IMG/VR virus record: IMGVR_UViG_3300020045_002589
Location: 1-26,853 of that record
Direction: 5' to 3' (one strand)
From: a virus
Lineage: Duplodnaviria; Caudoviricetes
Length of the DNA stretch: 26,853 nt
Below, one piece after another: positions 2,332-26,054 of the stretch (within the stretch, counting starts at the first letter, position 1; each line of letters opens with the position of its first letter). The notes beneath the pieces are model-generated. The model was not told where the DNA came from, did no database searches, and worked only from the letters and a program-made list of their open reading frames with translations. The translations under genes and the position numbers were made by a program.

Positions 2332-2568
2332 ATGAGCATCCCAACTGCACCACTCCAAACCCCTGAATTTGACCAAAACTGGATTCATTACTTTGCGGTG
2401 ATTAGTCCTATTATTGCCAGTCTTGCTGATAGCGGAACTACTACTGTACGTCCTATTAAGGGTCTTTGGATTGGTAGGCAATTCTTTGATACAACTATCG
2501 GTAAGCCAATCTATGTTAAGACTTTAGTTCCTATTGTTTGGGTAGATGCTGCTGGAGTAGTAGTCTAA
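2332..2568 (+). CDS. Small virion/tail accessory protein
   Basis: SGTTTVRP..L.IGRQFFDTTIGKPIY..WVDA.G..V is a motif common in phage tail/spike proteins. The stop overlaps the next start (TAATG). Confidence 0.65.
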   Translation: MSIPTAPLQTPEFDQNWIHYFAVISPIIASLADSGTTTVRPIKGLWIGRQFFDTTIGKPIYVKTLVPIVWVDAAGVVV

Positions 2569-3437
2569 TGGAAAACTCTACTATTATTAACCCATCTGAA
2601 CAGTTACTTGTCTCTGTAAATCTATCAACAGAGCTTGAACCTTTAGTTTTAACAGAGCCACAGTTAAGTTGTCCCGTCATTCATACTTTAGCCCCTAAGA
2701 TGTATATTCGGGAAGTCCATTTACCAAAGGGAGCTTTCATCTTAGGTAACTATCACACCACACTACACCAGAATATCATGTTAAAAGGTGAACTAGACCT
2801 AATACATGAGGATGGTTCTGCTACAAGGATAGTTGCTCCTTATATGTGTACTGGTAGTATTGGTCGTAAGATGGCTTTTATCATAGAAGATACTGTCTGG
2901 TTAAACTTATTCTCTGTAGAAGATGAAGAACAAGATATAGAAGTTCTTGAAGCGCGTTTCATGGATAGAAGTGAAGCCTTCCTGCAAGCTAGAGATAGTG
3001 CAAAGGTAACGCCCTTGGAGGATATTGAAGACTTTAGCTACTTCTTGGAATGCTTCCAACTAGATAGAGAAACAGTCCAAGCAATCCCAGAAGATACTTC
3101 CGATTTAATAAAGTTACCCTATGGTAGTTACAAATTCAAGATAGCAGACTCTACTATTGCTGGTAAAGGTGTCTTTGCAACAGCTAATATAGCTAGTGGA
3201 GAACTAATTGGAGCTAGTAGGATAGGAAATAAAAGAACTTCACTTGGCAGATACTTAAATCATGCTAAAGAACCCAATGCAACTATGATAAGAGTAGGCG
3301 AAGATATTCTCTTAATAGCTACAAAGGAGTTACTTGGTTGTTTTGGGGGTCTTGATGGGGAAGAAATTACAGTAAACTATGCGGATGTATTACAAGTAAC
3401 TCACTTGGCAAACGCAGTATCGGAGGATTTAAAATGA
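2568..3437 (+). CDS. Cupin-like domain fused to a SET-domain (putative lysine methyltransferase) protein
   Basis: N-terminal H.LAP.MYIREVHLPKG.FILG.YH...H.NIMLKG cupin pattern. C-terminal SET motifs STIAGKGVFAT..I..GE.I, RYLNHAKEPN and GEEITVNY. ATG 2568 is coupled to the upstream stop. Confidence 0.85.
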   Translation: MENSTIINPSEQLLVSVNLSTELEPLVLTEPQLSCPVIHTLAPKMYIREVHLPKGAFILGNYHTTLHQNIMLKGELDLIHEDGSATRIVAPYMCTGSIGRKMAFIIEDTVWLNLFSVEDEEQDIEVLEARFMDRSEAFLQARDSAKVTPLEDIEDFSYFLECFQLDRETVQAIPEDTSDLIKLPYGSYKFKIADSTIAGKGVFATANIASGELIGASRIGNKRTSLGRYLNHAKEPNATMIRVGEDILLIATKELLGCFGGLDGEEITVNYADVLQVTHLANAVSEDLK

Positions 3438-5353
3438 GTGGAGTAGCTGCCGCAGTAGCCGTGGGTACAGCCGTAGTAACGACTGGCGCACAAATGTATT
3501 CTTCTAGTAAGGCTAATAAAGCCCAGAAGAATGCCTTAAATCAACAGGGGGAGACAAGCCAAGGTAACTTTAATGATACTTCTGCCCTATATAGTCCGTA
3601 TGTAACCTCAGGTACTAATGCCTTAAATCGCTTACAGACGGGTACAGCTAAACCTATGACTGAGGAGCAGTTTACAAAAGCTAACCAAGCCTATCAAGTA
3701 GCATTGAATGACTGGAATAGCACGGAAGCTAGATACAACACAATGAAAGCCCAGTATAATCAACTAGACCAAAATGGAAAGAATGCCGTAGGTAACTCTC
3801 CAGAAGGTATGGTGGAATACTTTGATAAAGCATTAGCGGATAAGTATAAAGCTGGTAAACCAAGTGAACCTACCAATGAAGGTAGAGGAGAGTTTAGCCA
3901 ACTTGCTAATATGACCCCACAGGACTACTTTGCAGCCGAAGCCGCCGCTGGTAGACCAGTTTCCGCAGTTGACCAGAACTGGAACGCTAACTTTGACCAA
4001 GCAAGTTACTTAGCCTCCCAAGGTAAGAGTCCTACAGCTTTAAATGATAACTTTAACACCAATGCTCATTTAAAACAGTTTGGGAAGTCCGAAGCTGATA
4101 TGTATAAAGACTTTAGCATGAACGATTGGTTAACTGCCCAAGGTAAAGACCCAAATGCTTTAGTACAGAACTTTGACCAAGCGGGTTACTTAGCTAGTCA
4201 AGGTAGAAGTGCTGATGCTTTAAATCAAAACTTTGACCAAAACGCTTACTTAGTTTCTCAAGGTAAACAGGCAGGTGACTTAAATGCTAACTTCGACCAA
4301 GCCGCATATCTAGCTTCCCAAGGTAGAAGTGTAGTGGACTTAAATGCTAACTTTGATATGGGTAGTTGGTTACAAAGTCAGGGTAGAAGTACCAATGCGT
4401 TAACCCGTGACTTTGCTATGTCGGACTATCAAGAAGACCCCGCATATAAGTTTAGACTAGACCAAGGCAATAGAAGTCTTGAAGCAAGTGCAGCCTCACG
4501 AGGTACTACTTTAAGTGGTGCAACCTTGAAGGCTCTTAGTGCTTATAACCAAGGAGAGGCAAGTCAAGAGTATCAAAACAGTGTAACTCGTTACAATGTT
4601 AATAGAAATAATTTACAAAGTGTTGCTTATAACGCTCAAGGTCAATTTGGTACTGATAGAGGTAATCTTATCGGTAACACTAACCAAGCTGCAAGTCAGT
4701 TTGGACAAAACAGGGCTAATCTAGTTTCTAACACTGCTAATGCTTCCAGTCAGTTTGAACGGGATAGAGGTAATCTTATTAGCAATACCACTAATGCAGC
4801 TAACCAGTTTGGACAAGATAGAAGCCAATTAACTAATGTTGCTTATAATGCTCAAGGTCAGTTTATTGGTGATAGAAGCAACCTAGTAGCTAATGTTGGT
4901 AATGCCTCTAATCAGTTTACAAATGATAGAGCTAATCTTATTAGCAATGTTGGTAACGAGTTTAATAGATTTAACACTAACCAGAATAAGCTATATGGTA
5001 AGTTCGTTGATGCTTATGGCAGACAAAGTGGGGCAAAACAGACTGATTTTAGCAATATCTATGGACTAAGTAATCAAGGTTTACAGGCTACTTATGCACA
5101 AGCTCAAGCTGGACAGACTAATGCGGATAACCAAATGGGTGTTCAAGCTGGTATTGGTAATGCCCAAGTTCAACAAAGTAATAGCAATGCTAATGCTATT
5201 AGTGGACTAGCTGGTACTGTAGGTGGTGTAGCCGCTAACTACTTTAAGAACCAACCCTTATCCTCTGGTGGTGGTACCTCTGGTGGTAGTTCTAGTGGTA
5301 ATGCTTTAACTGGCTATACTCCATATCAATCACCTAATTATAGACTATACTAA
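3434..5353 (+). CDS. DNA ejection/pilot protein (P22 gp7-like) with expanded internal repeats
   Basis: Small-residue hydrophobic N-terminus, LYSPYVTSG..ALNRL, and conserved core DPAYKFRLDQG..SLEASAASRG..LSGATLKAL..Y.Q..ASQEY. Gln/Asn/Gly/Ala-rich. Confidence 0.8.
   Translation: MSGVAAAVAVGTAVVTTGAQMYSSSKANKAQKNALNQQGETSQGNFNDTSALYSPYVTSGTNALNRLQTGTAKPMTEEQFTKANQAYQVALNDWNSTEARYNTMKAQYNQLDQNGKNAVGNSPEGMVEYFDKALADKYKAGKPSEPTNEGRGEFSQLANMTPQDYFAAEAAAGRPVSAVDQNWNANFDQASYLASQGKSPTALNDNFNTNAHLKQFGKSEADMYKDFSMNDWLTAQGKDPNALVQNFDQAGYLASQGRSADALNQNFDQNAYLVSQGKQAGDLNANFDQAAYLASQGRSVVDLNANFDMGSWLQSQGRSTNALTRDFAMSDYQEDPAYKFRLDQGNRSLEASAASRGTTLSGATLKALSAYNQGEASQEYQNSVTRYNVNRNNLQSVAYNAQGQFGTDRGNLIGNTNQAASQFGQNRANLVSNTANASSQFERDRGNLISNTTNAANQFGQDRSQLTNVAYNAQGQFIGDRSNLVANVGNASNQFTNDRANLISNVGNEFNRFNTNQNKLYGKFVDAYGRQSGAKQTDFSNIYGLSNQGLQATYAQAQAGQTNADNQMGVQAGIGNAQVQQSNSNANAISGLAGTVGGVAANYFKNQPLSSGGGTSGGSSSGNALTGYTPYQSPNYRLY
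3989..4408 (+). repeat. 7 x 60-bp (20-aa) coding tandem repeat, consensus NFDQAxYLASQGxSxxxLNx
   Basis: The repeat register recurs exactly every 60 nt (CTTTG-like starts at 3991, 4051, 4111, 4171, 4231, 4291, 4351). Confidence 0.9.
4604..4981 (+). repeat. 7 x 54-bp (18-aa) coding tandem repeat, consensus RxNLxxNxxNAxxQFxxD
   Basis: Seven consecutive 18-aa units from RNNLQSVAYNAQGQFGTD to RANLISNVGNEFNRFNTN. Confidence 0.9.
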
Positions 5354-5364
5354 GGAGTAATCTC

Positions 5365-10220: not shown

Positions 10221-11438
10221 CTAAAATTCCCTAGGCAATGTCCATTTGTTGTTAAATCCGATTACAAATTTCTTAGTTAATGCAAATGCAAGTTCTCTGC
10301 TATAAGCTACACAGTCCCAGTTACGAGCTAACTCAATATGACTAAGCTGAACAAAGTCTTTTCCTTTAATCTTACTAAGTGAATTAACCCTTTGCTCAAG
10401 TAAATAACCAACAATCTCATTCTTACTAAGTAAGTTTGTTTGTTCTGCCAGCTTTGCTAATTCCCCCCATAACAACTGCTTATCATCTACCGTAAGTAAT
10501 TTATTAATTATAACATCCATTGGGATAATCTTATAATCAAAGTTAATTATCTGCTTTGCTGTTAGCTTACAAAGTAAGTTCTGCCTTCTATTAACTTCAA
10601 TATTCTTACCAAGGAACATTCTTGTAACTTTAGTAGTAGCTTGCTTGCTAAGTCCTAACTCCAAGCTACTAATTTGTTTCCAAATGGCAGAACTATCAAC
10701 CTCAGGGAATAGCTTTTCATAGTCGGAAGCTTCCCCAGTGAATACCCAATCCAGTAAACCACCAGTCTCCACTGAAAGTAATACCTGTCTAGCAAAACAA
10801 CCAAGGAACTTTGTTTCCAACGGAGTTAACCCAAGAGAAGCTATTTGGTCTATCTTATCTTCCCTTGGATAATCTAAGTATTCCTTAAGTGGATTACTCT
10901 TATACTTCATACTAACCAAGTGAACTCTATTGGTTAAACTTGTTGGTAAGCCATTAAGCGCAAGGAGGTCTTCCAGTTTTGCCTTAGCTAGTTCCTTTGG
11001 AATATTACTACCAAACTTAAGAGTAATAATATCATTTAATTCCTCATAAACAATATCAATCCCATAGCATTTACAAAGTATAGCTAAATTATCACTTGTT
11101 GCAAGGACTTTATCCCCTTTCTTATCCTTGAATAACTGTACTGGAATTGGCATCCCCATATCAATTATGTTAGTAAGAAGGCTTGCTTGCATCTTTTCAA
11201 CCTCTCCCTTAATAAGCATTTCAAGTATCTTACCCTTACCATGCAATTGAGGTAGCCCAGCTAGATAATGAGCAATAATAGGTATAAAGCTAACAGTTTT
11301 AAAAAGTCCTTCCTCTTTTAACTCATAAATATCCCCAACAATACCCTCAGAGATAGTAAACACATTACTCTCTTTTTGATACTTTCTACAAAAGTAAGCT
11401 ATGGCTTCCGTCCTAGTTTGACCTGTTATAGACTTCAT
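10221..11438 (-). CDS. Degenerate VapE/VirE-like (primase-associated helicase-like) protein
   Basis: NLAILCKCYGIDIVYEEL and KYKSNPLKEYLD resemble the N-terminal part of VapE-type domains, but no GxxGxGKS Walker A is present. Start MKSITG at 11438 follows GAAGGG. Confidence 0.45.
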   Translation of the reverse strand: MKSITGQTRTEAIAYFCRKYQKESNVFTISEGIVGDIYELKEEGLFKTVSFIPIIAHYLAGLPQLHGKGKILEMLIKGEVEKMQASLLTNIIDMGMPIPVQLFKDKKGDKVLATSDNLAILCKCYGIDIVYEELNDIITLKFGSNIPKELAKAKLEDLLALNGLPTSLTNRVHLVSMKYKSNPLKEYLDYPREDKIDQIASLGLTPLETKFLGCFARQVLLSVETGGLLDWVFTGEASDYEKLFPEVDSSAIWKQISSLELGLSKQATTKVTRMFLGKNIEVNRRQNLLCKLTAKQIINFDYKIIPMDVIINKLLTVDDKQLLWGELAKLAEQTNLLSKNEIVGYLLEQRVNSLSKIKGKDFVQLSHIELARNWDCVAYSRELAFALTKKFVIGFNNKWTLPREF

Positions 11439-11507
11439 GGGTAACCCTTCTTTAGTTGCTAATTTGCCCGAATAGTAGCATAAAAAGCCCAGAATTACTA
11501 GAAATAC

Positions 11508-11536
11508 TTGCCTTGCCAAGCAACCTATGATATGAT
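11508..11536 (+). promoter_or_regulatory. Putative sigma70 promoter for the portal block
   Basis: TTGCCT (11508-11513), 17 nt, TATGAT (11531-11536), with extended -10 TG. Confidence 0.6.
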
Positions 11537-11568: not shown

Positions 11569-12015
11569 ATGAGTTCCCCAATCACAGATAGTATCACCAC
11601 AGCCCTTGAGCTGGGAGTACCTTATGATAGCTTCGTAGACCACCTACTTAAGGTTTTCTCAGAAGATTCACTTACAAAAGGTTTCATTGCTTCCCAAACT
11701 TGCTTTTATCTAACTTCCGAACAAGTAGAGATTATGAAGTTAAGCTTGGATGTTGCAAACCACGCTGCCCTCTATACTCAAATAACTAAGATAAAATCCT
11801 TAACAAGAATATTACCACCAATGGCACTTACAGAACTTACTGAGGAGTTTAAACTCGCAGTAGCTTTTGTTAATGCAACAGGGGTTACTGGTGTAGTAGC
11901 TTGGGTACTTGCCAATGAACTCGTTCTAGCTAGAACAGGTATTGATTGCCATAAGTTACTACGCGTGAAGGAACTTATAGCTACACCAACTACTTTGGAG
12001 ACCGCTAATGCCTAA
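11569..12015 (+). CDS. Hypothetical protein upstream of the portal
   Basis: 148 aa, AGGA SD, overlaps the portal start; no motif recognised. Confidence 0.7.
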   Translation: MSSPITDSITTALELGVPYDSFVDHLLKVFSEDSLTKGFIASQTCFYLTSEQVEIMKLSLDVANHAALYTQITKIKSLTRILPPMALTELTEEFKLAVAFVNATGVTGVVAWVLANELVLARTGIDCHKLLRVKELIATPTTLETANA

Positions 12016-14173
12016 CATGGATAAGAAACAAGAACTAACCCAGTCCGAAGACGATGATAAAATCCTTAGTGAAGCCCTAAAACGCTTCGATTACTTAATG
12101 GAATTGGATGCTGATAATCGGGAACTTTGGAAAGAAGACCTTAAATTTGCTAATGGCGACCCTGATAATGGTTGGCAACTAGAGTCTAATGTTTTCCAAG
12201 ATAGACAAGCTGCTGGCAAACCTTGTCTTACGGTTAATAAAGTTAAAGCTCTTAACCGTGTTATCACAAACGAATACCGAATGAATAGGACAAGTCCTAA
12301 AGTTATTCCTTCTGGTGGTGGTAGTGATAAAGATACAGCGGAGACCTTTAACAGTATCATTCGACATATTGAAGCACAGTCTTGTGCAGATTCAGTCTAC
12401 AGTAATGCCTTTGAGTTCGCGGTAAATGCTGGACTTGGCTACTATCGTGTTGTAACTGATTATCTCCATGAGGAGTCTTTTGACCAAGAAATCTTCCTAA
12501 GAGCTGTCAGAAATCCACTTAATATCTTGATGGATTTAGGTAACTTCTCTGATGGTAGGGATAGTCGCTATGCTTTTGACTTTACGGATATGCCAAGAGA
12601 GGAGTTTGAAGCTGCTTACCCCGACGAGACTGTAGCAGACTTCTCCAGAAGTAATGGTTCTAATGGTTGGGTAACTGAGGAAACTGTCCGTCTTTGTGAA
12701 TACTTTAGAGTAGTTGCAGAAGAGGATACTTTATATTCCTTACCAGATGGTAACTCTATCCGTGCTAGTAAGATAAAAACTACCCTTGGCTTGGAAGACT
12801 TAGATACCAGTGAGCTTAAGTCTCGTAAGATTACTGCACATAAAGTTGAGTGGTTCTTACTAGGTAATAATACTATCCTAGAACGGGGTATTTGGGCTGG
12901 TAAGTATATTCCCATTATCCGTGTAGTTGGACATGAAATTGAAGTTGACAATAAGTTATACCGTTGTGGACATACCCGTGCAATGAAAGATGTACAAAGA
13001 ATGTATAACTTCTGGACTAGCTCTGCTGTAGAAGCTGTTGGCTTACACGGTAAACAACCATACTTTGCGGCTATAGCTGCTATTCAAGGTTTTGAAGATG
13101 AATGGGATAGCTTAAATACAGACGATGTTGCCTATCTACCTTACAATCATGTTGATTCGGCTGGTAATCCTATCCCAGTTCCAGTTAAACAAGAAGGCGC
13201 ACCTATCCCAGCGGCTTACTTACAAGGTATGAAGACTGCAAGTGATGAAATGCAAGCTATTAGTGGTCAGTATGATGCACAAACTGGACAGTCGGTTAAT
13301 AACCAGTCAGGTGTTGCTATTGATAACTTACAACGAAAAGGTGATGTAGCTACTTATCATCTTATCGACAATGCTGAAATGGCTAAGTTATTCACAACAG
13401 CCCTATTAATTGACCTTATTCCTAAAATCTATGATACTCCCCGTGTTGTTCGTATTGTTGGGGAAGATAATAAAGAAGGTGAGATTGAGATTAATCCTAA
13501 CTTACCAGTAGCTAGAGAAAGTCAACAAACTGAGACTGGAGAGATACGAAATATCTTTAACCCATCTGTAGGTAGATATGATGTTCAACCTGCTACAGGT
13601 GCTAACTATGCAACAGGTAGAAGAGAGCAAAGTGCCGCACTACTTTCCTTAGTTACTTCTAATCCTGCCTTGTGGGATATAGCTGGGGATTTAATAGCTT
13701 CTAGTTTAGATTTCCCATTAAGTGAGGAAATAGCAACTAGACTAGCAACAAGGATTAATCCACCACCAGTTGAACCACCTCCCTTACCAGAAGTTCCACA
13801 AGATGTACAAGAGCATATCATTGCTCAAGAGTCTATGATTAAATCAATGGATACTGTTATAACTCAAATGCAAGCGGATATTAACAAGAAAGAAGTACAA
13901 CTTGTTGAGAAAAGTAGAGCTGATACTATAAAGGAAAGAGAACTTGCAGTTAAAGAGTATGAAGCTGAGACAGATAGACTTAAAGTTCTTGAACCCACTA
14001 TGAGTCCAGAAGCTATTAGGACTATGGTAATGCAATTGATGTTTGATATGCGGGAAGCACCAAGAGTTGATGCTGAGGAAGCCTATACTGCACAAGAGTT
14101 CTCTCCAATGCCTGTACCGATGAGAGAACCAATGCCTGTAGTAACTGAACAACCAATTAACCCATTAATTTAA
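12008..14173 (+). CDS. P22-like portal protein
   Basis: 721 aa with EDLKFANG...WQ, PCLTVNK, F..AV..GLGY, YIPII.V.G, MKD.QR.YN, SGVAI, LIPKIYDTPRVVRI.G and GRYDV...G..Y.T.R, plus a C-terminal coiled coil. Confidence 0.93.
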   Translation: MPNMDKKQELTQSEDDDKILSEALKRFDYLMELDADNRELWKEDLKFANGDPDNGWQLESNVFQDRQAAGKPCLTVNKVKALNRVITNEYRMNRTSPKVIPSGGGSDKDTAETFNSIIRHIEAQSCADSVYSNAFEFAVNAGLGYYRVVTDYLHEESFDQEIFLRAVRNPLNILMDLGNFSDGRDSRYAFDFTDMPREEFEAAYPDETVADFSRSNGSNGWVTEETVRLCEYFRVVAEEDTLYSLPDGNSIRASKIKTTLGLEDLDTSELKSRKITAHKVEWFLLGNNTILERGIWAGKYIPIIRVVGHEIEVDNKLYRCGHTRAMKDVQRMYNFWTSSAVEAVGLHGKQPYFAAIAAIQGFEDEWDSLNTDDVAYLPYNHVDSAGNPIPVPVKQEGAPIPAAYLQGMKTASDEMQAISGQYDAQTGQSVNNQSGVAIDNLQRKGDVATYHLIDNAEMAKLFTTALLIDLIPKIYDTPRVVRIVGEDNKEGEIEINPNLPVARESQQTETGEIRNIFNPSVGRYDVQPATGANYATGRREQSAALLSLVTSNPALWDIAGDLIASSLDFPLSEEIATRLATRINPPPVEPPPLPEVPQDVQEHIIAQESMIKSMDTVITQMQADINKKEVQLVEKSRADTIKERELAVKEYEAETDRLKVLEPTMSPEAIRTMVMQLMFDMREAPRVDAEEAYTAQEFSPMPVPMREPMPVVTEQPINPLI

Positions 14174-14218: not shown

Positions 14219-14404
14219 ATGCTCAAACCTACTAAACTTCGTGCTGGAACAGACGTTAAAGGAGGCGATAACTATGGTACTTCCTCAAGTGTAACTCACT
14301 ATGGAAAAGGAAGTATCACCCGACCAACTAACCATGAGAAGTTTGCTTCTGAATGGGATAGAATCTTTGGTAAGAAAGCTACTTTGGAGACTCCTAATGT
14401 CTGA
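14219..14404 (+). CDS. Small conserved phage protein (GKGS..RP....F...WDRIFGKK motif)
   Basis: SD TTGGAG. I recall this motif from many short phage hypothetical proteins; function unknown. Confidence 0.7.
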   Translation: MLKPTKLRAGTDVKGGDNYGTSSSVTHYGKGSITRPTNHEKFASEWDRIFGKKATLETPNV

Positions 14405-14633
14405 CCAATCAAAAATTACAGGCTACAGAAGCCTTACTAAAGTCGAACTTGATTTAATAAACGAATCAAAGGAATTAGCAGGGCTAGTAGGAAAGTTTGT
14501 AGATAAACTAGCCTTAATGCCTAGCTCGGAAACTCTTGTAGTTGATATGCGCTGGGTTGCTATCGGCAAAACCGACCTACAAACAGGCTTCATGGCATTA
14601 GTTCGAGCTATTGCTAAACCAGAGTCCTTTTAA
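14397..14633 (+). CDS. acb2: Acb2-family anti-CBASS cyclic-nucleotide sponge protein
   Basis: KITGYRSL...E.DLIN..KE ... RWVAIGKTDLQTGFMALVRAIAKPESF matches the Acb2 signature (KI.GYR.L..EEI..MN..K ... RW.AI.KT..QTG.MA..RAIA.P.SF). GGAGA SD precedes ATG 14397. Confidence 0.88.
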   Translation: MSDQSKITGYRSLTKVELDLINESKELAGLVGKFVDKLALMPSSETLVVDMRWVAIGKTDLQTGFMALVRAIAKPESF

Positions 14634-14834: not shown

Positions 14835-15560
14835 ATGACTATCAACGCCCAAGACCCTCAAGATACCGAAGCTACTATCGAAGTTACCGACCCTGTTAGT
14901 GAATCAACCACCGATGAAGCTTCCACCGAAGAAGATAATACCCCAGTTCCTACCTCCGAAGAAGAGAAGTCTGCTGTACAAAAGCGAATTAACGCTATGA
15001 CGAAGGAAAAGTATGAGCTTAAGCAGAAGTTGGCAGCCGCCGAAGCTAAACTAGCTACTCAACCAGTAGACCCTTTGAATGTAACTCCAGAAACTCTCCA
15101 AGACTTAGTTCATAAAGAAGCTACACGACTTGCACAAGAATCTTCCTTTAACAATCGTTGTAATGATATTTTTGAAGAAGCTGTAAGCAAGATGCCTACC
15201 TTTGCAGAAGATATTAATACCCTGAATACCATCGGCTTAGTTGCTAACAAAGACCTCTTCGACTCTGTTGTAGAGTCCGATGTTGCCGCAGATATTCTTA
15301 TCTATCTTGCAGACAATCTTGAGGAAGCTGAGAGACTTATTAATCTTCCCTCCCGAAGTATGTATCGTGAATTAGCTAAACTCGAAGTTAAGCTATCAGA
15401 CACACCCGCACCAGCTAAGAAACCAGTTAGTAAAGCCCCTACACCTATTAAACCAGTAGCTTCACGCGGTGTAGTCTCTGAGATTGATGTAGAGAAGAAC
15501 CCCGCTGGCTGGATTGAACAACGCAATAAAGCACTAGCCCTTAAAAGGCAAGGAAAGTAA
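14835..15560 (+). CDS. Capsid scaffolding protein
   Basis: Acidic N-terminus, VQKRINAMTKEKYE coil, I.IYLA.N.EEA.RL..L, KPVSKAP.PI.PV and a basic C-terminal helix; lies between portal and coat. Confidence 0.85.
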   Translation: MTINAQDPQDTEATIEVTDPVSESTTDEASTEEDNTPVPTSEEEKSAVQKRINAMTKEKYELKQKLAAAEAKLATQPVDPLNVTPETLQDLVHKEATRLAQESSFNNRCNDIFEEAVSKMPTFAEDINTLNTIGLVANKDLFDSVVESDVAADILIYLADNLEEAERLINLPSRSMYRELAKLEVKLSDTPAPAKKPVSKAPTPIKPVASRGVVSEIDVEKNPAGWIEQRNKALALKRQGK

Positions 15561-16127: not shown

Positions 16128-17372
16128 ATGGCTAATAACGTCGTAACAAGTTCTATGATTACCGCTGAAACATTGCGTGTAATCCACAATAACTCCGCTT
16201 TCTTGGGCAATATTAATACCCAGTTTGATGGTTCTTTCGCTAAGACTGGTGGTAAAGTCGGGCAGACAATTAACGCTCGTGTACCAGTTCAGTTTACTGT
16301 TCGTGAAGGTGCAGTTGCTAACATTCAAGATGTGAATGAAACTACTGTTCCAATTACTATTCAACCTGAAACTGGTATTGACTGGGCATTCAGTGACAGT
16401 GACCTTACATTAGGTATCGATAAGTTCTCAGAACGCTACTTAACTCCCGCTGGTAAACGCTTAGCTTCTGCATTGGATATGAAAATTGCTGCTTTGTACA
16501 AAAGCGTAGCTAACTTTAGTGGTACTGTTGGTACTTCTCCAGCTACAGCGGCTTCTGCATTACAAGCTGCGGCTATCTTAGATAACAATGGTGCGCCGCG
16601 TGATGGTTTAAGAACCTTTGCCTTAAATCCTTTAGCTAATGCTTCATTAGTTGGTGGCTTAGCAGGTTTACTGAATGACCAAGCTACTCTCGGCAAACAA
16701 TACAAAGAAGGCTTAATGGCTACTTCTTTAGGTATGGACTTTCAAATGAGTCAGAACTTACCTACCCATACTGTTGGTGGCTTAGGTGGTACTCCTTTAG
16801 TGGACGGTGCTAACCAAGGTACTATTAACGTAGGTACAACTGATAACCCTCATGCTACTACAACTAGCTTGCTGACTAAAGGTTGGACTGCTGCCGTAGC
16901 TAACAGACTGAAAGCTGGTGACGTTGTTACTCTTGCAGGTGTTTATGCAGTTAATCCAGAAACTAAACAAAACACTGGTGCGTTGAAGTCTTTTGCGGTA
17001 ACGGCTGATGTTAGTTCTACTGCTGGTGGTGCTGGTACTTTGGTATTATCTCCTGCAATCATCGCTGGTGGTGCTTATCAGAACGTAACTGCCCTTCCCG
17101 CTGATGGTGCTGCTGTTACCGTCTTAACTGGTGGTGCTGGTGTATCTAGTCCACAAAACATCTTGTTCCATAAAGATGCTTTCACATTGGTTTCTGTTGA
17201 TATGGAAACTATCAATGGCATGGATATGTTCTCACAAGAAACAGTTGATGATATTAGCTTACGTTTTGTTCGTGGTTATGACATTACTAATAACAGACGT
17301 ATCTGTAGATTTGATATGTTAGCTGGTTATGCTTTGATTCGACCAGAATGGGCTTGCCGAGTTACAAGCTAA
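16128..17372 (+). CDS. Major capsid protein, P22 gp5-like
   Basis: MANN..T...I..E.L..I.N, K.G.TIN.R.P, F.D.DL.L.I..FSERYL.PA, a central insertion domain, FHKDAF.LV and R.D.L.GY..IRPEWACR. Confidence 0.93.
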   Translation: MANNVVTSSMITAETLRVIHNNSAFLGNINTQFDGSFAKTGGKVGQTINARVPVQFTVREGAVANIQDVNETTVPITIQPETGIDWAFSDSDLTLGIDKFSERYLTPAGKRLASALDMKIAALYKSVANFSGTVGTSPATAASALQAAAILDNNGAPRDGLRTFALNPLANASLVGGLAGLLNDQATLGKQYKEGLMATSLGMDFQMSQNLPTHTVGGLGGTPLVDGANQGTINVGTTDNPHATTTSLLTKGWTAAVANRLKAGDVVTLAGVYAVNPETKQNTGALKSFAVTADVSSTAGGAGTLVLSPAIIAGGAYQNVTALPADGAAVTVLTGGAGVSSPQNILFHKDAFTLVSVDMETINGMDMFSQETVDDISLRFVRGYDITNNRRICRFDMLAGYALIRPEWACRVTS

Positions 17373-17385
17373 AGTAATCCTTCCA

Positions 17386-17415
17386 AGTGGGTAGTTATTA
17401 GCTGCCCACTCCTTT
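17386..17415 (+). terminator. Stem-loop after the coat gene (weak terminator or mRNA stabiliser)
   Basis: Stem AGTGGGTAGTT / AGCTGCCCACT with a poor U-tract (CCTTT). Confidence 0.5.
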
Positions 17416-17434
17416 CCATTCTTGAGGAACTACC

Positions 17435-17647
17435 ATGTTGAAATCTGATATAATCAAAGCAAGAGCTGTCGGTGGCAGACCAAAAGCTAAAGCTACTACA
17501 GTCAAGTCTGCCCCTGTTAAACCAACTGTACGCACGAAACCTACCGTTAAGGCAGTTAATAAATTAATGGGTGCTAAGCCTGTAACCGTTATTGTTGTTG
17601 GCAAGCCTAGTAAATCCAGTAAAGGCAAACCTAAGTCTAAATGCTAG
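17435..17647 (+). CDS. Small, very basic Lys/Pro/Val-rich protein (histone-tail/H1-like composition)
   Basis: GAGG SD. 70 aa with 16 Lys, 3 Arg and 1 Asp. Bounded by a hairpin and a terminator. Confidence 0.7.
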   Translation: MLKSDIIKARAVGGRPKAKATTVKSAPVKPTVRTKPTVKAVNKLMGAKPVTVIVVGKPSKSSKGKPKSKC

Positions 17648-17738: not shown

Positions 17739-18380
17739 ATGAAGAATAATGCTACGAAGATATACGGTTTAAGGAGCGAGAGGGATTCTATCATTACCAG
17801 TACCTTACAGGTTGGGCAGATATTCCATGAACTTGATTCCTGCACTGAATATGAATGGGACTCTGTTAGATGGGTTAAGTCTAGTGAACCATGCTTAGGT
17901 ATCCCACTTAGGAAGTTCCTAACACAGTCATTTGATGGTTTAGGAGTTTATAATCTACGGGGTAATTACCCAGTAGCTACTAACTTTGGCTATACAGTAG
18001 TCGGAACACCTTACACACTCCATTCATTACTATTCACAATAACTGACAATGCAACCTTTAATGCGCTAGACTATGGCGGCATAGTTGATGGCTTAACTAA
18101 TGGAATTTCCCTTTGGTTCAAGCCTTTAGCTGGAACACCAATTCCCTTAGTCTTCAATAATCCAATTAAATACAACTATGAGTGGTTTACCCATGTTGCG
18201 GATACGAGTCTTTCTACCTTCGCTGGCGGTACACAAACATTGGTTATTCCTTTGGATATTATTGATGATTATGGTGTCCCATTAACTATGTTAGTTGGGG
18301 ATAGTATCTATGTAACATTAAACGACAACTTTACTAATCTAATCTCTCATACCTTTGGTATCAGAGGAACAAGTCACTAA
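17739..18380 (+). CDS. Putative minor virion (head fibre/decoration-like) protein
   Basis: N-terminal GQIFHELDS..EYEWD...W resembles small trimerisation/attachment modules; the rest is beta-rich. Lies between coat and adaptor; SD TTGGAG. Confidence 0.55.
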   Translation: MKNNATKIYGLRSERDSIITSTLQVGQIFHELDSCTEYEWDSVRWVKSSEPCLGIPLRKFLTQSFDGLGVYNLRGNYPVATNFGYTVVGTPYTLHSLLFTITDNATFNALDYGGIVDGLTNGISLWFKPLAGTPIPLVFNNPIKYNYEWFTHVADTSLSTFAGGTQTLVIPLDIIDDYGVPLTMLVGDSIYVTLNDNFTNLISHTFGIRGTSH

Positions 18381-18390
18381 GGAATTTCCA

Positions 18391-19059
18391 ATGACAACAG
18401 CTAACAATATAATTACTTTAGCCCTTAAAGACTGCGGTGTGGTGGGTGAAGGCGAGACACCATCTTCGGAGACTATTAATGATGCACTAACTACCCTTGT
18501 TGGTATGTTGGACTTATGGCAAGTTGATGGTTTAATACCTTTTGCAGAAGTCTTGCAAAACTTAACTGTTAATGGAGCAGCTTCATATAATCTAACTATC
18601 CCGTATGGAGTGCAATTCATTGTCTACACACCTGATGGTTCTGCTAAGTATCCTCTTAGAGATATTACATTGGAAGAGTTTAGCTCTCTTAGCTTTCCAC
18701 TAACAACAGGGATACCTACTAGATATACATACTCTGTAGGAGCTACCAGTGGAACACTAAAGTTATACCCAAATCCTTCTTCTGGAACTATCCAATACGG
18801 GGTTACAACGGACTTAACAACTGCATTGGGACTTACTGTTGATGTTCCAGTTCCTAAGGCTTATGTGCAAGCTATTAGATTTAATCTAGCAGTCTTACTT
18901 GCTACTACCTTTGGTGTTGCGGCTAGACCTGATATAGCTGCTATTGCTAGTGCTTCCTTAGGGATTCTTAAACGCGCTAATCTTAAGCAAAAGAGGTTAG
19001 CTAACACTATCCCAACAAGTAGCACTATATATTCTTTTAATATCTTCCAAGGAGCTTAA
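18391..19059 (+). CDS. Head-to-tail adaptor (P22 gp4-like)
   Basis: MTTA..II..AL...GV...GETPS.....DAL..L..ML..W and P..Y..AI..NLAV.L...FG. AGGA SD precedes ATG 18391. Confidence 0.8.
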   Translation: MTTANNIITLALKDCGVVGEGETPSSETINDALTTLVGMLDLWQVDGLIPFAEVLQNLTVNGAASYNLTIPYGVQFIVYTPDGSAKYPLRDITLEEFSSLSFPLTTGIPTRYTYSVGATSGTLKLYPNPSSGTIQYGVTTDLTTALGLTVDVPVPKAYVQAIRFNLAVLLATTFGVAARPDIAAIASASLGILKRANLKQKRLANTIPTSSTIYSFNIFQGA

Positions 19060-19060
19060 G

Positions 19061-20437
19061 ATGGCAACTAAATTAGACTTGTTTGGGACTAATGCTTCTG
19101 AGAGATTCCCTAAGACTGGTTCTGCTAAGTTAGTTAATATGTACTTGGAGAATACAGAAGATATGGGTGTGGTAGCTCTCCAACGTACAGGCTACACTGA
19201 GTGGCTTAATATGGGTGAAACACCTATACGGGGTATTAGAACTATTAATAGTAAGTTATACTTTATCCATCTTGATAATCTTTATGTTTGTTCAACTGAT
19301 AAGAGTACAGTTAATCTTGGTAAGGTTGATACGAGTAGTGGTAGAGTAGCTATGACAGATAATGGTGTGCAATTATTTATAGCTACCAGCGGTTCAGGAT
19401 ATATACTTACTCTAGCGACTAATGCCTTAACTAAGATAGTTGCCGCTGGCTACCCTAATGGTACTACTGCTCAGTTCAATGCTGGTTACTTTCTTGCAGT
19501 TAAACCTAATAGTATGCAGTTCTTTATTAGCTCCCTCTATGATGGCACAACTTGGGATGCCTTGGACTTTGCATCGGCAGAGGCTAACCCAGATAGCTTA
19601 GTAACAAGTGTAATTAGTAATGGCTTAGCTATTATGTTTGGAACACAAACTACCGAGTTCTGGGCAAACAATGGTAATGGTAGCTTTCCTTATGCACCAA
19701 GTGGCTTAGCTGCTGAATGGGGACTTGCAGCTCGTTGGAGTCTTAGTAAGTTCGATAGTTCACTGGTGTACCTTGCAAGGAACTCCTTAGGGGAAGTACA
19801 GATAGTTCGTTTGGATGGTTATAAGCCTACAAGGATTTCCTCTACGGCTATTGAAGCTATTATTAATAGTTTCTCAGAAGTTACTGATGCGGTGGGTTTA
19901 TCCTACCTTCATGCTGGACACCCTTTCTATCAGATAAGTTTCCCAACTGTTGCTAGAACCTTTTGCTATGATGGGCTTACTAATCTATGGTCAGAGATAA
20001 CTTCCTTTGGATTGACACGTTCGTTAGTTGACCAAGCTATTACTTGGGAAGGTAATACCTATTTTACTGATTATCGTAGGGCAATAATTTACAAACTAGA
20101 TGCTACTTCTTCTAAGGATGGGGCATTGCCTATTATTGGCTCAATTGTTAGTAAGCAGCTAAAGCCAACAGGAGATATTTTCAGTGTTAATAGTGTTAAG
20201 GTAGAGTTTGCGGCTGGACTTATTGCAAGCAATACTGAGAATCCTCAGATTAGTCTTAGTGTGTCTAAGGATGGTGGTAATACTTGGAGTAATACGCTAA
20301 TGCGTCCAATGGGAAAGGTTGGTGAGTATTTAACAAGTGCTAAATGGGCTAGACTTGGAAGTGGAAGAATGTTTACTTTCAAGATAAGTATCTCGGATGC
20401 TGTTGATAAGGCTATTATTGCCGCTTATGTTGAGTAA
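19061..20437 (+). CDS. Packaged-DNA stabilisation / tail hub protein (P22 gp10-like)
   Basis: GRVAMTDNG.QL, FASAEANPD, FG..TTEFW.N.G, Y..AGH.FY.ISFP, S.DGG.TWS and W.RLG.GR. Confidence 0.9.
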   Translation: MATKLDLFGTNASERFPKTGSAKLVNMYLENTEDMGVVALQRTGYTEWLNMGETPIRGIRTINSKLYFIHLDNLYVCSTDKSTVNLGKVDTSSGRVAMTDNGVQLFIATSGSGYILTLATNALTKIVAAGYPNGTTAQFNAGYFLAVKPNSMQFFISSLYDGTTWDALDFASAEANPDSLVTSVISNGLAIMFGTQTTEFWANNGNGSFPYAPSGLAAEWGLAARWSLSKFDSSLVYLARNSLGEVQIVRLDGYKPTRISSTAIEAIINSFSEVTDAVGLSYLHAGHPFYQISFPTVARTFCYDGLTNLWSEITSFGLTRSLVDQAITWEGNTYFTDYRRAIIYKLDATSSKDGALPIIGSIVSKQLKPTGDIFSVNSVKVEFAAGLIASNTENPQISLSVSKDGGNTWSNTLMRPMGKVGEYLTSAKWARLGSGRMFTFKISISDAVDKAIIAAYVE

Positions 20438-20442
20438 TTAAG

Positions 20443-21843
20443 ATGGAAAAGACCTTTGAACTAACGAGTCGGCAGAAAGAAGCAAATGAAGTTCTGGCTG
20501 GTATTGCTACACATGAGATGTTGTTCGGGGGTAGCCGTAGTGGTAAGACTTTCCTTATCTGTCGGAACATAGTGTTAAGGGCGTTGCTTGCTCCAACAAG
20601 TCGGCATGGTATCTTTCGTTACCGTTATAATGCTATTAGAAGTAGTATCATGATGGATACTATGCCTAAGGTATTTAAACTCTGCTTTCCTAATGTAACT
20701 TATGAGCTTAATAAGACTGAGGGGATATTCTACCTTCCTAATGGGAGTAGTATTGTACTTGGGGGGTTAGATGATGGTCAGAGAGTTGAGAAACTACTTG
20801 GCTTAGAGTTTGCTACTTTGTATCTTAATGAGACAAGTCAGATACCTTTCTCTTCAAGGAACTTAATTGTAACAAGATTGGCACAGAAGGTAGTTAAGCT
20901 TGATGGAACTGTCTTAACGCCAAGGATGTATTATGATGCTAATCCGCCTAGTAAGAGTCATTGGACATATAAGATGTTTGTGCTTAAAATAGACCCTGAG
21001 AGTAAGCGTCCTTTACCTAATCCAGATGATTATTCTTCCTTTCAGATTAATCCCGCCGATAATACTGCCAATGTTTCAGAAGGGTATTTGAATATTCTTA
21101 AGGGAATGAGTAGTAAGATGCAGAAGAGATTCTTACTTGGGGAGTTTAGTGATGAAGGGTTAGATACGTTGTTTAAGGAAGATAACCTAGCTAGGAATAA
21201 TGTAACTATTGATGAACTACCAGAGTTCACTAGGGTAGTTATTGCAGTAGACCCTAGTGGTGTTAGTGACTCTGAGAGTAAGGGTGATGCTATTGGGATT
21301 ATTGTAGCTGGACTTGGTACGGATAAGTTAGCTTATATATTAAAGGATGCGACTATTAAGGCTTCGCCAGCGGTGTGGGGTCAGTTGGTAACAGATGTTT
21401 TTGATGAATATGAGGCTGACTTAGTTGTTACGGAGATAAACTATGGTGGTGCTATGGTTAAGAATGTACTACGGGCAAGCCGTAGTAACTTACCGATTAA
21501 AGTAACTACAAGTACAAGAGGGAAACACTTAAGGGCGGAACCAGTGGCAACATTGTATGAACAAGATAAGGTTAAACATCTTACTAACCCAGCCAACGGT
21601 GTAGAAGGGGGATTATTTGAACTAGAAGAAGAGCTTCTTGGGTTCACCAGCACAGGGTACACTGGGGAAAGAAGTCCTAATAGGGCAGATGCACTCGTCT
21701 TTGTAGTAACTGAGTTGTTTAATGATATTATTACCCCACCAAGAAGTCCAAGAGACGGGGCTACCGCTGGTAGTGAAAATGGTGGTATTTTGGTCGGGCA
21801 AAGTGCGGGGAGAAGACGGGGGAAAAAGATGGGGAATTGGTGA
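20443..21843 (+). CDS. terL: Terminase large subunit
   Basis: Q motif (LTSRQ), Walker A GGSRSGKT, Walker B variant LYLNE, coupling motif DANP, nuclease motifs IAVDP, E.NYGG, GK..RAEPV and SPNRADA. Confidence 0.93.
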   Translation: MEKTFELTSRQKEANEVLAGIATHEMLFGGSRSGKTFLICRNIVLRALLAPTSRHGIFRYRYNAIRSSIMMDTMPKVFKLCFPNVTYELNKTEGIFYLPNGSSIVLGGLDDGQRVEKLLGLEFATLYLNETSQIPFSSRNLIVTRLAQKVVKLDGTVLTPRMYYDANPPSKSHWTYKMFVLKIDPESKRPLPNPDDYSSFQINPADNTANVSEGYLNILKGMSSKMQKRFLLGEFSDEGLDTLFKEDNLARNNVTIDELPEFTRVVIAVDPSGVSDSESKGDAIGIIVAGLGTDKLAYILKDATIKASPAVWGQLVTDVFDEYEADLVVTEINYGGAMVKNVLRASRSNLPIKVTTSTRGKHLRAEPVATLYEQDKVKHLTNPANGVEGGLFELEEELLGFTSTGYTGERSPNRADALVFVVTELFNDIITPPRSPRDGATAGSENGGILVGQSAGRRRGKKMGNW

Positions 21844-21996: not shown

Positions 21997-23823
21997 ATGA
22001 ACACAACCGACAACATTCAAATTATCCATGCAGGAAGTAACACTTACCTAAGTGACTTCATGGATGACCTACCAAACAATGTTATTCTTAATAAAGTAAC
22101 TACTGGTTCAGGTATGACAACCTTAGCATTAACTAACCCTGTTAAGTATGTCATCACAGTTCCCTATGTTAATATTATTCTAAGTAAGTTAGCAAATAAT
22201 GTCCTAAGTGTCTACGCAGAAGCTGATAGTGGCATAACCTATGATGATATTCTTAACTACCAAGGTGATAAAATCATCTGCACTTATGACTCCTTACCAA
22301 AGGTAACAGCCGCCTTAGCAGAACGTGGAGACCTTAAGTCATGGAAACTCCTTATTGATGAATGTCAGAAACTTGTTGATGCAGGTTCTTTCAGAGCTAA
22401 AGCTATTAAAGGAGTATTAACTTCCTATCCAACCTACGGCAGTTATGTCTTTGGAACAGCTACCCCTATTAAAGATGAGTTCCAACTACCTGAACTACGC
22501 AGTATCCCAAAGATTACTGTTGCTTGGGAAGGTTTAACCCCTGTTAATGTCAGACATACTTTCTACCCTAATAAATTAATGGAAGTAGTAGCTACTATTG
22601 CAAGAAACTATCTTGAAAACAACTCTACCGACAATGCCCATATCTTCCTCAACTCTGTCACAGACATTATTAAGGTTATTAGGTATCTTAAGGCAGGTTT
22701 CCCAACCTTACATGATAACTTGCGTATTGTCTGTGCGGATAATGAATACAATGTAGCTAAGATACCTGCTATGCTTGGTACTAAATACTCCCTTGCACCA
22801 ATTAACTCTCTTGTTAAGAAACTTAACTTCTACACTGCAACTGCCTTTGAAGGTTGTGACATCTTTGATACCAATGGTAAGACATTTATTATCAGTAATG
22901 GTAGCCGTGACCATGCAAAGATTGACATTTTAACAACTCTCCCACAGATTATTGGACGTATTCGTAACAGTATTTACAAGAATGAAGTTGAACTTATCTA
23001 CTCCGCAAGTAGTTACACTTCCCATGTTACTCAAGAAGAGTTCAGTGCTTGTGTTAAGGATAATCTTGCCAAAGCTGCCCAAAGTGTGGCTGACTACTAC
23101 AATGTCTCACCTGATACTCAGAAACTTATCAGAGAAGGAGCAAGTACAAACAATTATCTCCTTGTCGATGGAACTTCCATTGAGGTTAATAGCACTGCTT
23201 GGTACTCTGAAATGAATGCTTTCCATACCTTACGGGAACTTTATTATGTTAATAAGAGCAATACTGTCTTTGGTACTACCAATGCAAGCCTACTTGTTAA
23301 TGGGAAGGTTTTCAACTATGCCAAGCAAGAAGTCATTGAGATTAAAGGACTTAACAAGGCTAAGTTAGGTAAAGTACCTAAATACAGTGACCTTTGTAAA
23401 GAATATATTGCCTTGCTGGAACTACCAACCAGTGCAGAAGTACAGCGTCAACTCCATAGCATTGAAGTTCTTGAACCCTCCATCAAGCAAGCCTATAAGG
23501 AACTTGGTAAGGAGAAGATGAAAGCCCTAGGATTCACTAAGAAGTATTTTGTTAAAGAGACTAATACACAGGTTAGGTTTCAAAGCCAAGGTAGTCAGAT
23601 AGGAACTATGTTACAGTTACAAACTGGTAAGTTCTACCCAGCTAAGGAACTAAAAGAGACTTTACAAGCTGCTTATGATAAGGTTGGTTTGGTAAAGCCT
23701 GCCAAGGCTACCGACATTAGCACATGGTATGTTACGAAAAAGCAATCTATCCGTGTAGTAGGTATTAAAACGGCGGGTATCACCATTATTGCTCCAAAAA
23801 GTTCATTAACATTTACCCTTTAA
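21997..23823 (+). CDS. Superfamily 2 (DExx-box) helicase-like protein, possible origin-binding/replication protein
   Basis: Motif I variant TGSGMTT, Ia VP, II LLIDECQ, III GTATP, V TATAFEGCDI and VI QIIGRIR, plus a basic C-terminal domain. Confidence 0.8.
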   Translation: MNTTDNIQIIHAGSNTYLSDFMDDLPNNVILNKVTTGSGMTTLALTNPVKYVITVPYVNIILSKLANNVLSVYAEADSGITYDDILNYQGDKIICTYDSLPKVTAALAERGDLKSWKLLIDECQKLVDAGSFRAKAIKGVLTSYPTYGSYVFGTATPIKDEFQLPELRSIPKITVAWEGLTPVNVRHTFYPNKLMEVVATIARNYLENNSTDNAHIFLNSVTDIIKVIRYLKAGFPTLHDNLRIVCADNEYNVAKIPAMLGTKYSLAPINSLVKKLNFYTATAFEGCDIFDTNGKTFIISNGSRDHAKIDILTTLPQIIGRIRNSIYKNEVELIYSASSYTSHVTQEEFSACVKDNLAKAAQSVADYYNVSPDTQKLIREGASTNNYLLVDGTSIEVNSTAWYSEMNAFHTLRELYYVNKSNTVFGTTNASLLVNGKVFNYAKQEVIEIKGLNKAKLGKVPKYSDLCKEYIALLELPTSAEVQRQLHSIEVLEPSIKQAYKELGKEKMKALGFTKKYFVKETNTQVRFQSQGSQIGTMLQLQTGKFYPAKELKETLQAAYDKVGLVKPAKATDISTWYVTKKQSIRVVGIKTAGITIIAPKSSLTFTL

Positions 23824-24938: not shown

Positions 24939-26054
24939 CTAGATTGTTAGAAAGTTAGTTAATAAGGCATCTAACCTAGTCTTAGTAAGCCCCACCCTAA
25001 GCTCTCCGAAGTAAAGCATTTCTAATAAAGGATGGAAGTAAGAATCATCGTTAGCTATCTTATTATTTAATTTCTTAGTCTCACTATCAACTTCTTTAAC
25101 TAAACTCTTACCAAGTTTGGTCTTAAAATGCTCATTATTTCCTACTTTAGACTCCCAAGTAGTAATAGCATCTAACTCCTCTAGCACTGTAGCTTCTGTA
25201 AAGGCTACATAGTATCCAGTAAGTATATCAGAGTATCCTAGATTCTCTTCAAGCAACTTCTTAAGCTCCCTTCTTTCTGGAACTGTCATTGTAAAGTCAT
25301 TCTTAATCTTACCCTTCCCCCTATTTGACAATTCCTTAAAGAAGTTATCCTTAATTAGATTGTGATGGGCAATTTCGGAGTTAGTTAATGCTACTGGATG
25401 TTTTACTTTACCAAAGTCACTTTTAACCATCCTAACTAACTCTTTTCTGTAATGTTGGATAACCTTTTTACTTCTTAAACTATCCAAGAGTGTTGCCCTA
25501 ACCTCATTACTTGTTGCATATTCTTCCTTAAGGAATACATCAAGAGTACAGTAATCAATTCCTTCCGCTATAAGAAACTCTCTTATTGGATTTCTATCCG
25601 ATAGTTTACTATCTTTTAAATTACGTCTATCATATCGGTATTGTTCTGGTACATAACCACAGATTTCAAGAATGTCAGAAGTGAATAGAAAGGTTTCAAT
25701 AAGTTCAGGGCATTTCTCAACTCTAGTAAATCGATGTGTGTCCTTATGTTCCATGAAATAGTTAAGAAGAAGTTTAGCACTATTAGTTGTGTGTTGTTCT
25801 TTGAAGAGTTTATCTAATTGGAGGGTATTGAAGATTTCAACTACTTTATAAGAGTAACCGATTGTTTCAAGGGTAAAGTAAGTATTCCAGACTTTACGCT
25901 GGGCAACTTTACTTTTACTGGTAAGCATTTCGCAACCAAGAGTATCACAGAGTTGTTTGTAGGAATAAGTAGTTCCAACCTTTAAGTGTTGTACTCTTTC
26001 AGCTAGATAAGAGGGTCTATGGTCAATTGGGGTTCTTGTTGCTTTAAGGGTCAT
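24939..26054 (-). CDS. Putative DNA-binding/replication-initiator-like protein
   Basis: N-terminal LKVG...SYKQLC..LG.....KSK.AQ.K.W..YF..E..G..Y.V.EIF looks winged-helix-like, and the gene abuts the palindrome-rich non-coding region. Function is inferred. Confidence 0.55.
   Translation of the reverse strand: MTLKATRTPIDHRPSYLAERVQHLKVGTTYSYKQLCDTLGCEMLTSKSKVAQRKVWNTYFTLETIGYSYKVVEIFNTLQLDKLFKEQHTTNSAKLLLNYFMEHKDTHRFTRVEKCPELIETFLFTSDILEICGYVPEQYRYDRRNLKDSKLSDRNPIREFLIAEGIDYCTLDVFLKEEYATSNEVRATLLDSLRSKKVIQHYRKELVRMVKSDFGKVKHPVALTNSEIAHHNLIKDNFFKELSNRGKGKIKNDFTMTVPERRELKKLLEENLGYSDILTGYYVAFTEATVLEELDAITTWESKVGNNEHFKTKLGKSLVKEVDSETKKLNNKIANDDSYFHPLLEMLYFGELRVGLTKTRLDALLTNFLTI

What the first reader, a model, noticed from the sequence alone, without database searches (positions are those of the whole stretch)
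17435..17647. Histone-tail-like Lys-rich protein next to the coat gene: possible substrate of the phage SET enzyme
Seen: 70 aa with 16 Lys, 3 Arg and 1 acidic residue, with KP/KA/KS motifs (KAKATTVKSAPVKP, KPSKSSKGKPKSK), co-transcribed with the coat gene up to a strong terminator. Known: SET enzymes methylate lysines in such basic disordered tails. Inference: together with the cupin-SET gene this may be a phage chromatin-like writer/substrate pair that tunes DNA condensation, ejection or shielding from host defences. The link is speculative and the genes are not adjacent.
Basis: inference. Interest (0 to 1): 0.7.

Follow-up and report, generated by a model that had tools for sequence, protein, structure and literature searches.

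The report
Lysine-rich phage peptide, not SET's partner
A short-tailed phage carries a real, fast-changing gene for a small, very positively charged peptide right behind its coat gene; the peptide likely binds the phage DNA by charge inside the head, and it occurs largely independently of the phage's SET methyltransferase, so the proposed histone-like writer/substrate pair is not supported.

Summary
The ORF is real: 70 aa, 16 K, 3 R, 1 D, with a Shine-Dalgarno site, a hairpin before and a terminator after; 0 of 5000 shuffles give its like; two homologues are 79% and 70% identical. The window is a whole circular P22-like podophage (26.7 kb). Relatives keep an 18-70 aa Lys-rich peptide ending in Cys in the same post-coat slot, and similar basic mini-genes are common in phage head modules. 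The SET link fails its own test. Two relatives have the peptide with a cupin but no SET (one 92% complete). None of 12 other SET phages has it. Of 20 viral records with Lys-rich ORFs ending MKGKC, only 1 has SET. SET sits in front of the ejection genes and tracks the next protein's start instead (MS[G/A] in 22 of 26 versus 0 of 25). A weak association in AT-rich loci (4/4 vs 5/15) keeps a side role open. Best reading: an ordinary, untested DNA-neutralising head accessory. Earlier notes of this scan reported both this peptide class and the SET-ejection link on other DNA.

The parts
17435..17647 (+). Lys-rich peptide gene, 70 aa, net +18, short Val/Ile patch at residues 52-55, C-terminal Cys
17424..17428 (+). 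Shine-Dalgarno-like GAGGA, 6 nt before the start codon
   Evidence: sequence
17386..17410 (+). Hairpin without a U-run between coat stop and peptide gene (likely mRNA stabiliser or leaky terminator); a hairpin of different sequence sits here in L001 and L002
17680..17710 (+). Intrinsic-terminator-like hairpin plus U-run closing the scaffold-coat-peptide unit; also present in L001 and L002, not found in L113
16128..17372 (+). P22-like coat protein gene (PF11651, phrog_283)
17739..18380 (+). 213-aa gene of no known family, marker of the window's close clade (L001, L157, L113)
2538..3437 (+). Cupin plus minimal SET gene (the proposed writer), overlapping the start of the first ejection gene by 4 nt
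3434..5353 (+). First DNA-ejection protein gene (phrog_598), beginning Met-Ser-Gly; the better candidate partner of SET

Best explanation
The gene encodes a small, strongly basic, predicted-disordered peptide that is likely made together with the coat protein, likely ends up in the head, and there would bind the packaged DNA by charge, without needing the SET enzyme. Shown: the ORF and its signals, its fixed place between coat stop and terminator, its presence in relatives with and without SET, and its fast sequence turnover with charge and terminal Cys kept. Inferred: expression at coat-like level, packaging, DNA binding, and a role for the Val/Ile patch as an anchor and for the Cys as a dimer or cross-link site. 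At one copy per coat subunit of a T=7 shell (415 copies, assumed) it would offset about 14% of the genome's phosphates, so it would be a helper and not a chromatin.
For: Same layout (coat, hairpin, peptide, terminator, orf213) in the window, L001 and L002 with unrelated hairpin sequences. Length varies from 18 to 70 aa, and only M1, a Pro-x-Lys and the last Cys are invariant over 7 sequences, while the coats of L001 and L002 are 96% and 91% identical. Contigs of two runs bridge coat to orf213 with 439 other letters in place of this region. This pattern fits selection on charge rather than on a recognition site. The Atlas model of the peptide has pLDDT 0.25. Other small Lys-rich ORFs are frequent in head and packaging regions of the fetched loci, including phrog_2423, phrog_16759, phrog_16028 and DUF6496; two of these modules also weakly match the N-termini of a head protease family and a virion protein family (E 0.017 and 0.036). 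Precedent: T4 IPI-III are basic, about 300 per head, bind DNA at low salt, are non-essential and poorly conserved (PMC9026906, passages). Charge arithmetic.
Against: No expression, virion or binding data. Most relatives have no such gene: only 4 of 74 deduplicated coat-to-gp10 regions carry the Cys-ended peptide, and many have nothing between coat and adaptor, so it is dispensable. Motor-packaging phages generally do not balance genome charge with capsid basic domains and use Mg2+ and polyamines (PMC7096446, passages). No capsid-targeting sequence or head protease was identified in this genome. Genes after the coat also include non-basic accessory families, so position alone does not show an internal location.
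Confidence: 0.55

Rival explanations
1. The peptide is the dedicated substrate of the phage cupin-SET enzyme, a chromatin-like writer/substrate pair.
For: Both genes are in the window and in its nearest relative L001. The SET domain keeps GxG, RYxNH and the terminal Tyr and folds like MLL1/vSET. With a looser definition (any post-coat ORF with 20% K or a K-rich tail), AT-rich loci give 4 of 4 SET versus 5 of 15 non-SET (p 0.033). Precedent: C. pneumoniae cpnSET was reported to methylate the H1-like Hc1 (PMC3980110, passages).
Against: Peptide without SET in L224 (92% complete) and L113. SET without the peptide in 12 of 12 further records scanned whole, 10 of them complete or at least 97%. 7 of 7 GC-rich SET loci have no K-rich post-coat gene at all. 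0 of 9 near-complete records with MKGKC-ended K-rich ORFs hold SET. The 4 of 4 is two gp10 lineages and includes the query; it falls to p 0.07 without the window and 0.33 when PH1 and MW202744 are added. No conserved Lys motif beyond Pro-x-Lys. The stretch before RYLNH has 4 basic and 0 acidic residues, which seems a poor fit for a polylysine substrate (inference). SET tracks the ejection-protein start (22 of 26 versus 0 of 25). C. trachomatis NUE did not methylate Hc1 (PMC2904774, passages).
Confidence: 0.07
2. The peptide acts in the infected cell and is not packaged: it binds phage or host DNA or RNA late in infection (nucleoid remodelling, shielding from nucleases, help for the packaging substrate).
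For: Composition (K+A+P 43%) resembles bacterial H1-like tails (recalled). Fast turnover is typical of host-conflict genes. An Acb2/Tad1-family anti-defence gene lies in the same late region.
Against: It is tied to the coat transcript and to head-module positions in relatives. No family match to any nucleoid or anti-defence protein in Pfam or PHROGs.
Confidence: 0.15
3. It is a shell-bound accessory: the Val/Ile strand docks on the coat or portal and the basic arms face outward or line the shell.
For: The hydrophobic patch is kept in 5 of 7 peptides. The slot holds other apparent head accessory genes in relatives.
Against: The patch is absent from the 18- and 20-aa versions, which leave almost nothing to fold.
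Confidence: 0.12
4. It is a translated but nearly neutral by-product gene kept by read-through from the coat transcript.
For: Narrow family: 2 homologues among 5.8 billion proteins, 1 cluster among 1.84 billion representatives, none in GenBank phages. Large length changes.
Against: Charge, start signal, flanking hairpins and terminal Cys persist while the DNA is no longer alignable.
Confidence: 0.1

Closest known systems
T4 internal proteins IPI, IPII, IPIII (PMC9026906, passages read)
   Same: Small, basic, non-essential, poorly conserved phage proteins that bind DNA at low salt and are carried in the head.
   Different: No sequence relation shown. IPs carry a 10-residue capsid-targeting sequence cut by gp21 and are 8-20 kDa; this peptide is 2-7 kDa across relatives, predicted disordered, and no head protease was found in this genome.
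Small Lys-rich phage head-module proteins of unknown function (phrog_2423, phrog_16759, phrog_16028, Pfam DUF6496)
   Same: Size, charge and location among terminase, portal and coat genes; phrog_2423 directly precedes the Cys-ended peptide in L113.
   Different: The window peptide matches none of these profiles (best: phrog_30605, E 0.061); it shares the class, not the family.
Chlamydial Hc1/Hc2 with cpnSET/NUE (PMC3980110, PMC2904774, passages read)
   Same: The nearest prokaryotic case of an H1-like basic protein reported as a SET substrate.
   Different: Contested even there (NUE did not methylate Hc1). Here the two genes do not co-occur consistently, and the SET is a cupin-fused minimal domain in the ejection module.
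Histone H1 C-terminal tail, H3/H4 tails and protamines (recalled)
   Same: K/A/P-rich disorder; a Cys that could cross-link, as in protamines.
   Different: No globular or histone-fold domain, none of the tail motifs tested, Lys- rather than Arg-rich.
PBCV-1 vSET (PDB 3kma) and MLL1/SETD8 SET domains, for the proposed writer
   Same: Minimal SET fold and catalytic motifs.
   Different: Fused to a cupin, coupled to an ejection gene, basic rather than acidic next to the cleft; substrate unknown.

Membership tests
Histones / histone H1 | Histone fold or H1 winged-helix globular domain | tested here: not met
   No Pfam hit; Atlas model pLDDT 0.25
Histones / histone H1 | Tail motifs ARKS, RK, SGRG, S/TPxK, PAKK (recalled) | tested here: not met
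   All absent; three [KR][STA]K triplets are present, and the RTK one reads RKK in both homologues
SET writer/substrate pair | Co-occurrence of enzyme and substrate genes | tested here: not met
   Peptide without SET in L113 and L224; SET without peptide in 12 of 12 records; strict table 2/11 vs 2/63. A weak signal remains under a loose definition in AT-rich loci.
SET writer/substrate pair | Intact SET catalytic motifs in the enzyme | tested here: met
   GxG, RYxNH and Tyr281 invariant in 7 sequences; fold matches
SET writer/substrate pair | Methyl transfer to the peptide | not testable with these tools
   Needs an in vitro assay or virion proteomics
T4-type internal proteins | Small, basic, non-essential, variable | tested here: met
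   (non-essential inferred from absence in most relatives)
T4-type internal proteins | N-terminal capsid-targeting sequence cut by a prohead protease | tested here: inconclusive
   N-termini are not conserved; no protease among the 28 ORFs scanned; no direct comparison with T4 sequences was run
T4-type internal proteins | Presence inside the virion | not testable with these tools
   Needs virion proteomics
phrog_2423 / 16759 / 16028 / DUF6496 basic mini-proteins | Profile match | tested here: not met
   No match for the window peptide or five relatives

The most novel reading that the evidence does not exclude
This podophage clade packages a protamine-like, Cys-ended polycation with its DNA (cross-linked by disulfide outside the cell, released in the reducing cytoplasm), and in AT-rich phages that also carry the cupin-SET the enzyme methylates these Lys-rich post-coat proteins as a second substrate, giving a phage a true chromatin-like mark.
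Probability: 0.08. Interest if true: 0.75.

Novelty: new member of a known kind. Interest (0 to 1): 0.25.

Why it matters
Tailed phages are thought to neutralise packaged DNA mainly with ions and polyamines. Small basic head-module genes like this one are widespread in uncultured phages and untested, so showing that one is packaged and binds DNA would give a job to a large class of ignored mini-genes. The more exciting claim, a phage histone-like writer/substrate pair, is not supported here. The useful result is to redirect tests of the phage SET enzyme to the N-terminus of the first ejection protein.

Tried and rejected
Complex prediction of two coat copies with the peptide: no verdict, score 0.00 against a mark of 0.32; not used as evidence either way. 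Sequencing runs: no RNA holder listed; three DNA runs with a small share of words, which hold relatives rather than this phage. Profile searches with the 5-peptide alignment were insensitive: one cluster among 1.84 billion representatives, and over 38 records the profile missed L001's own peptide, so absence claims rest on composition scans. A locus scan with that alignment was not possible. No match in GenBank phages, where the low-complexity filter is on. Atlas hits were all under 0.9 and unnamed. The idea that the terminal Cys marks the whole class was tested and rejected: among 120 capped matches to MKGK-x-stop, 27 were K-rich ORFs, ending R 15, K 6, Y 3, C 3, so Cys is a feature of this clade and a few others. 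The overlapping minus-strand ORF 17398-17628 was rejected as a shadow. My first table missed the L224 peptide because of a Shine-Dalgarno filter; corrected. Literature searches listed no study of a phage SET with a basic virion substrate or of this peptide class; listings only, in a library that lacks most subscription papers. No supplements were read. The host was not identified.

Full report
Setting. The first 121 bases of the window recur at 26733, so it is a whole circular genome of 26,732 bp; IMG/VR classes it as a virus record with direct terminal repeats. Family scans give a P22-like podophage: portal 12008-14173, scaffold 14835-15560, coat 16128-17372, adaptor and head closure 18355-20437, terminase 20443-21843, and across the circle a cupin-SET gene 2538-3437, three ejection genes 3434-8459 and a tail fibre. 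The order is rearranged: in the nearest relative L001 (coat 96% identical) the cupin-SET follows gp10 about 3 kb after the coat.

Observation. The ORF, its composition, its start signal and both hairpins are as described. Shuffles of the intergenic gap gave 0 of 5000 comparable ORFs, codon use matches the structural genes, and two predicted homologues of 68 aa exist. The protein has no Pfam or PHROG family and is predicted disordered. It has none of the histone-tail motifs tested (motifs recalled), so the likeness is compositional.

What relatives show. L001 has a 29-aa and L002 a 45-aa Lys-rich peptide in the same slot, each with a Val/Ile patch and a terminal Cys, each between a hairpin and a terminator-like hairpin. 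L113 (20 aa) and L224 (18 aa) carry shorter Cys-ended versions after the coat. Over seven sequences only Met1, Pro27, Lys29 and Cys70 are invariant. Contigs of runs X1 and X2 match the coat and orf213 but bridge them with 439 other letters, so the slot changes quickly. On a quick gp10 tree of 75 rows the window, L157 (probably the same phage as L002: same sample, adjoining genes) and L001 form a supported group. L113 and L224 lie next to it under a weakly supported node (SH-aLRT 81). The peptide therefore seems to follow this lineage.

Co-occurrence with SET. I built a deduplicated set of 74 loci holding coat, gp10 and the region behind gp10 (out of 274 loci). The Cys-ended peptide is in 2 of 11 SET loci (window, L001) and 2 of 63 loci with no SET seen (L113, L224); Fisher p 0.10, or 0.36 without the window. 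'No SET seen' is uncertain for fragments, for rearranged genomes and for L186, whose cupin is cut by the contig end. Two cases are firmer. The L224 record is 92% complete and holds only the cupin part (L001 rang as positive control). The L113 contig holds only the cupin, although the genome bin it was filed in has two cellular SET genes on other contigs. In the other direction, 12 further SET records scanned whole (five GenBank genomes and seven IMG/VR records; 10 complete or at least 97%) have no Cys-ended Lys-rich ORF; G019 has one 37-aa K/P/A-rich ORF without Cys far from its SET gene. That scan used a start-signal filter. A filter-free scan covered the five GenBank genomes and the flanks of the others, with the same result.

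The wider class. A scan of IMG/VR for DNA encoding MKGKC-stop gave 34 loci; 20 end Lys-rich ORFs of 29-126 aa in several unrelated types, and 14 are short chance-like matches. Many of those inspected lie among terminase, portal or coat genes with other basic mini-genes (12 inspected). Only 1 of the 20 records (L001's own) has SET, and 0 of 9 near-complete ones do. These nine are a few lineages, and their homology to the window peptide is not shown. A control scan showed that Cys is not the usual last residue of such ORFs (R 15, K 6, Y 3, C 3 of 27).

With a loose definition (any post-coat ORF with 20% Lys or a Lys-rich tail), 4 of 11 SET and 8 of 63 non-SET loci qualify (p 0.07). Among AT-rich loci it is 4 of 4 against 5 of 15 (p 0.033). 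The two extra cases (L043, L050) belong to a different post-coat family and are sisters on the tree. The signal drops to p 0.07 without the window and 0.33 when the AT-rich SET phages PH1 and MW202744, which have no such gene after their capsid gene, are added. All 7 GC-rich SET loci lack one. I take this as mostly base composition and kinship, but it leaves a side reaction open.

A better target for SET. The SET domain looks intact. Its gene sits directly before the first ejection gene, mostly with a 4-nt overlap. The same slot holds a lone cupin, or genes that look like GNAT or hydroxylase enzymes by eye, in other relatives (the P22 gp14/T7 gp13 analogy is recalled). Of 26 distinct N-termini next to cupin-SET, 22 begin Met-Ser-Gly/Ala, against 0 of 25 next to a lone cupin. 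Left out of that count: 5 cupin-SET and 2 cupin loci without a called next gene, 3 cupins at contig ends and 1 SET-only locus; at least 3 cupin rows are followed by a non-ejection gene. SET needs at least 3 changes on the gp10 tree, so this is not one inherited block, but the p value is inflated by kinship. I saw this pattern before reading earlier scan notes that report it; those notes are not independent support.

Mechanism. The most likely reading is a polycationic head accessory made from the coat transcript, which would bind DNA by charge. T4's basic internal proteins are the working analogy (PMC9026906, passages), not a family match. 415 copies would offset about 14% of the phosphates (copy number assumed). 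Against it: most relatives lack the gene, and motor-packaging phages mostly rely on ions and polyamines (PMC7096446, passages). Expression, packaging and binding are all inferred. PMC8954989 (passages) was read for ejection-protein background only.

Verdict. Observation confirmed; writer/substrate pairing not supported; new member of a common, unexplained kind of basic phage mini-protein that this scan has noted before on other genomes. Interest 0.25.

Noticed in passing
window 2538-3437 and 3434-5353; L012-L064: Cupin-SET tracks a Met-Ser-Gly/Ala start on the next ejection protein (22 of 26 versus 0 of 25); lone cupins and other apparent modifying enzymes fill the same slot in relatives.
   Followed up: partly
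window 1-26853: The genome is 26.7 kb, while near-complete coat relatives are 35-39 kb; CheckV gives 69% despite the terminal repeat. Capsid size or terminal redundancy may differ.
   Followed up: no
window 19061-21843; L157:1283-5015: The terminase gene follows gp10 and the ejection module is moved elsewhere, in the window and apparently in L157 (gp10 also followed by terminase), but not in L001.
   Followed up: partly
L157:2730-5015: The terminase of L157 carries an insert of about 300 aa that looks like an intein (by eye), with a 214-aa HNH-like ORF on the opposite strand inside it.
   Followed up: no
window 14301-14633: Acb2/Tad1-family anti-defence gene (PF24729) between portal and scaffold.
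   Followed up: no
window 17739-18380; L001, L157, L113: A 213-aa protein with no Pfam or PHROG match is shared by the clade, 86% identical in L001, and sits elsewhere in L113.
   Followed up: partly
window 21997-23823, 10221-11519, 24939-26054: Three large ORFs (608, 432, 371 aa) with no Pfam match above cut-off; none of the 28 ORFs scanned in Pfam (of 77 listed) matched a polymerase or integrase.
   Followed up: no
L316-L349, L353-L472: Many unrelated Lys-rich phage mini-proteins end in Met-Lys-Gly-Lys-x, often in clusters near terminase, portal or coat genes.
   Followed up: partly
L001:5926-6087; L003:10375-10632; L043:6266-6517; L050:6008-6259: A common post-coat family starting Tyr-Pro-Lys/Thr, with an acidic body and either a small helical tail or a basic tail; in L001 it sits just before the Lys-rich peptide.
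   Followed up: partly
L113 (G003:C57): This phage contig is filed in a Taibaiella genome bin that has two cellular SET genes on other contigs; the host link is unverified.
   Followed up: no
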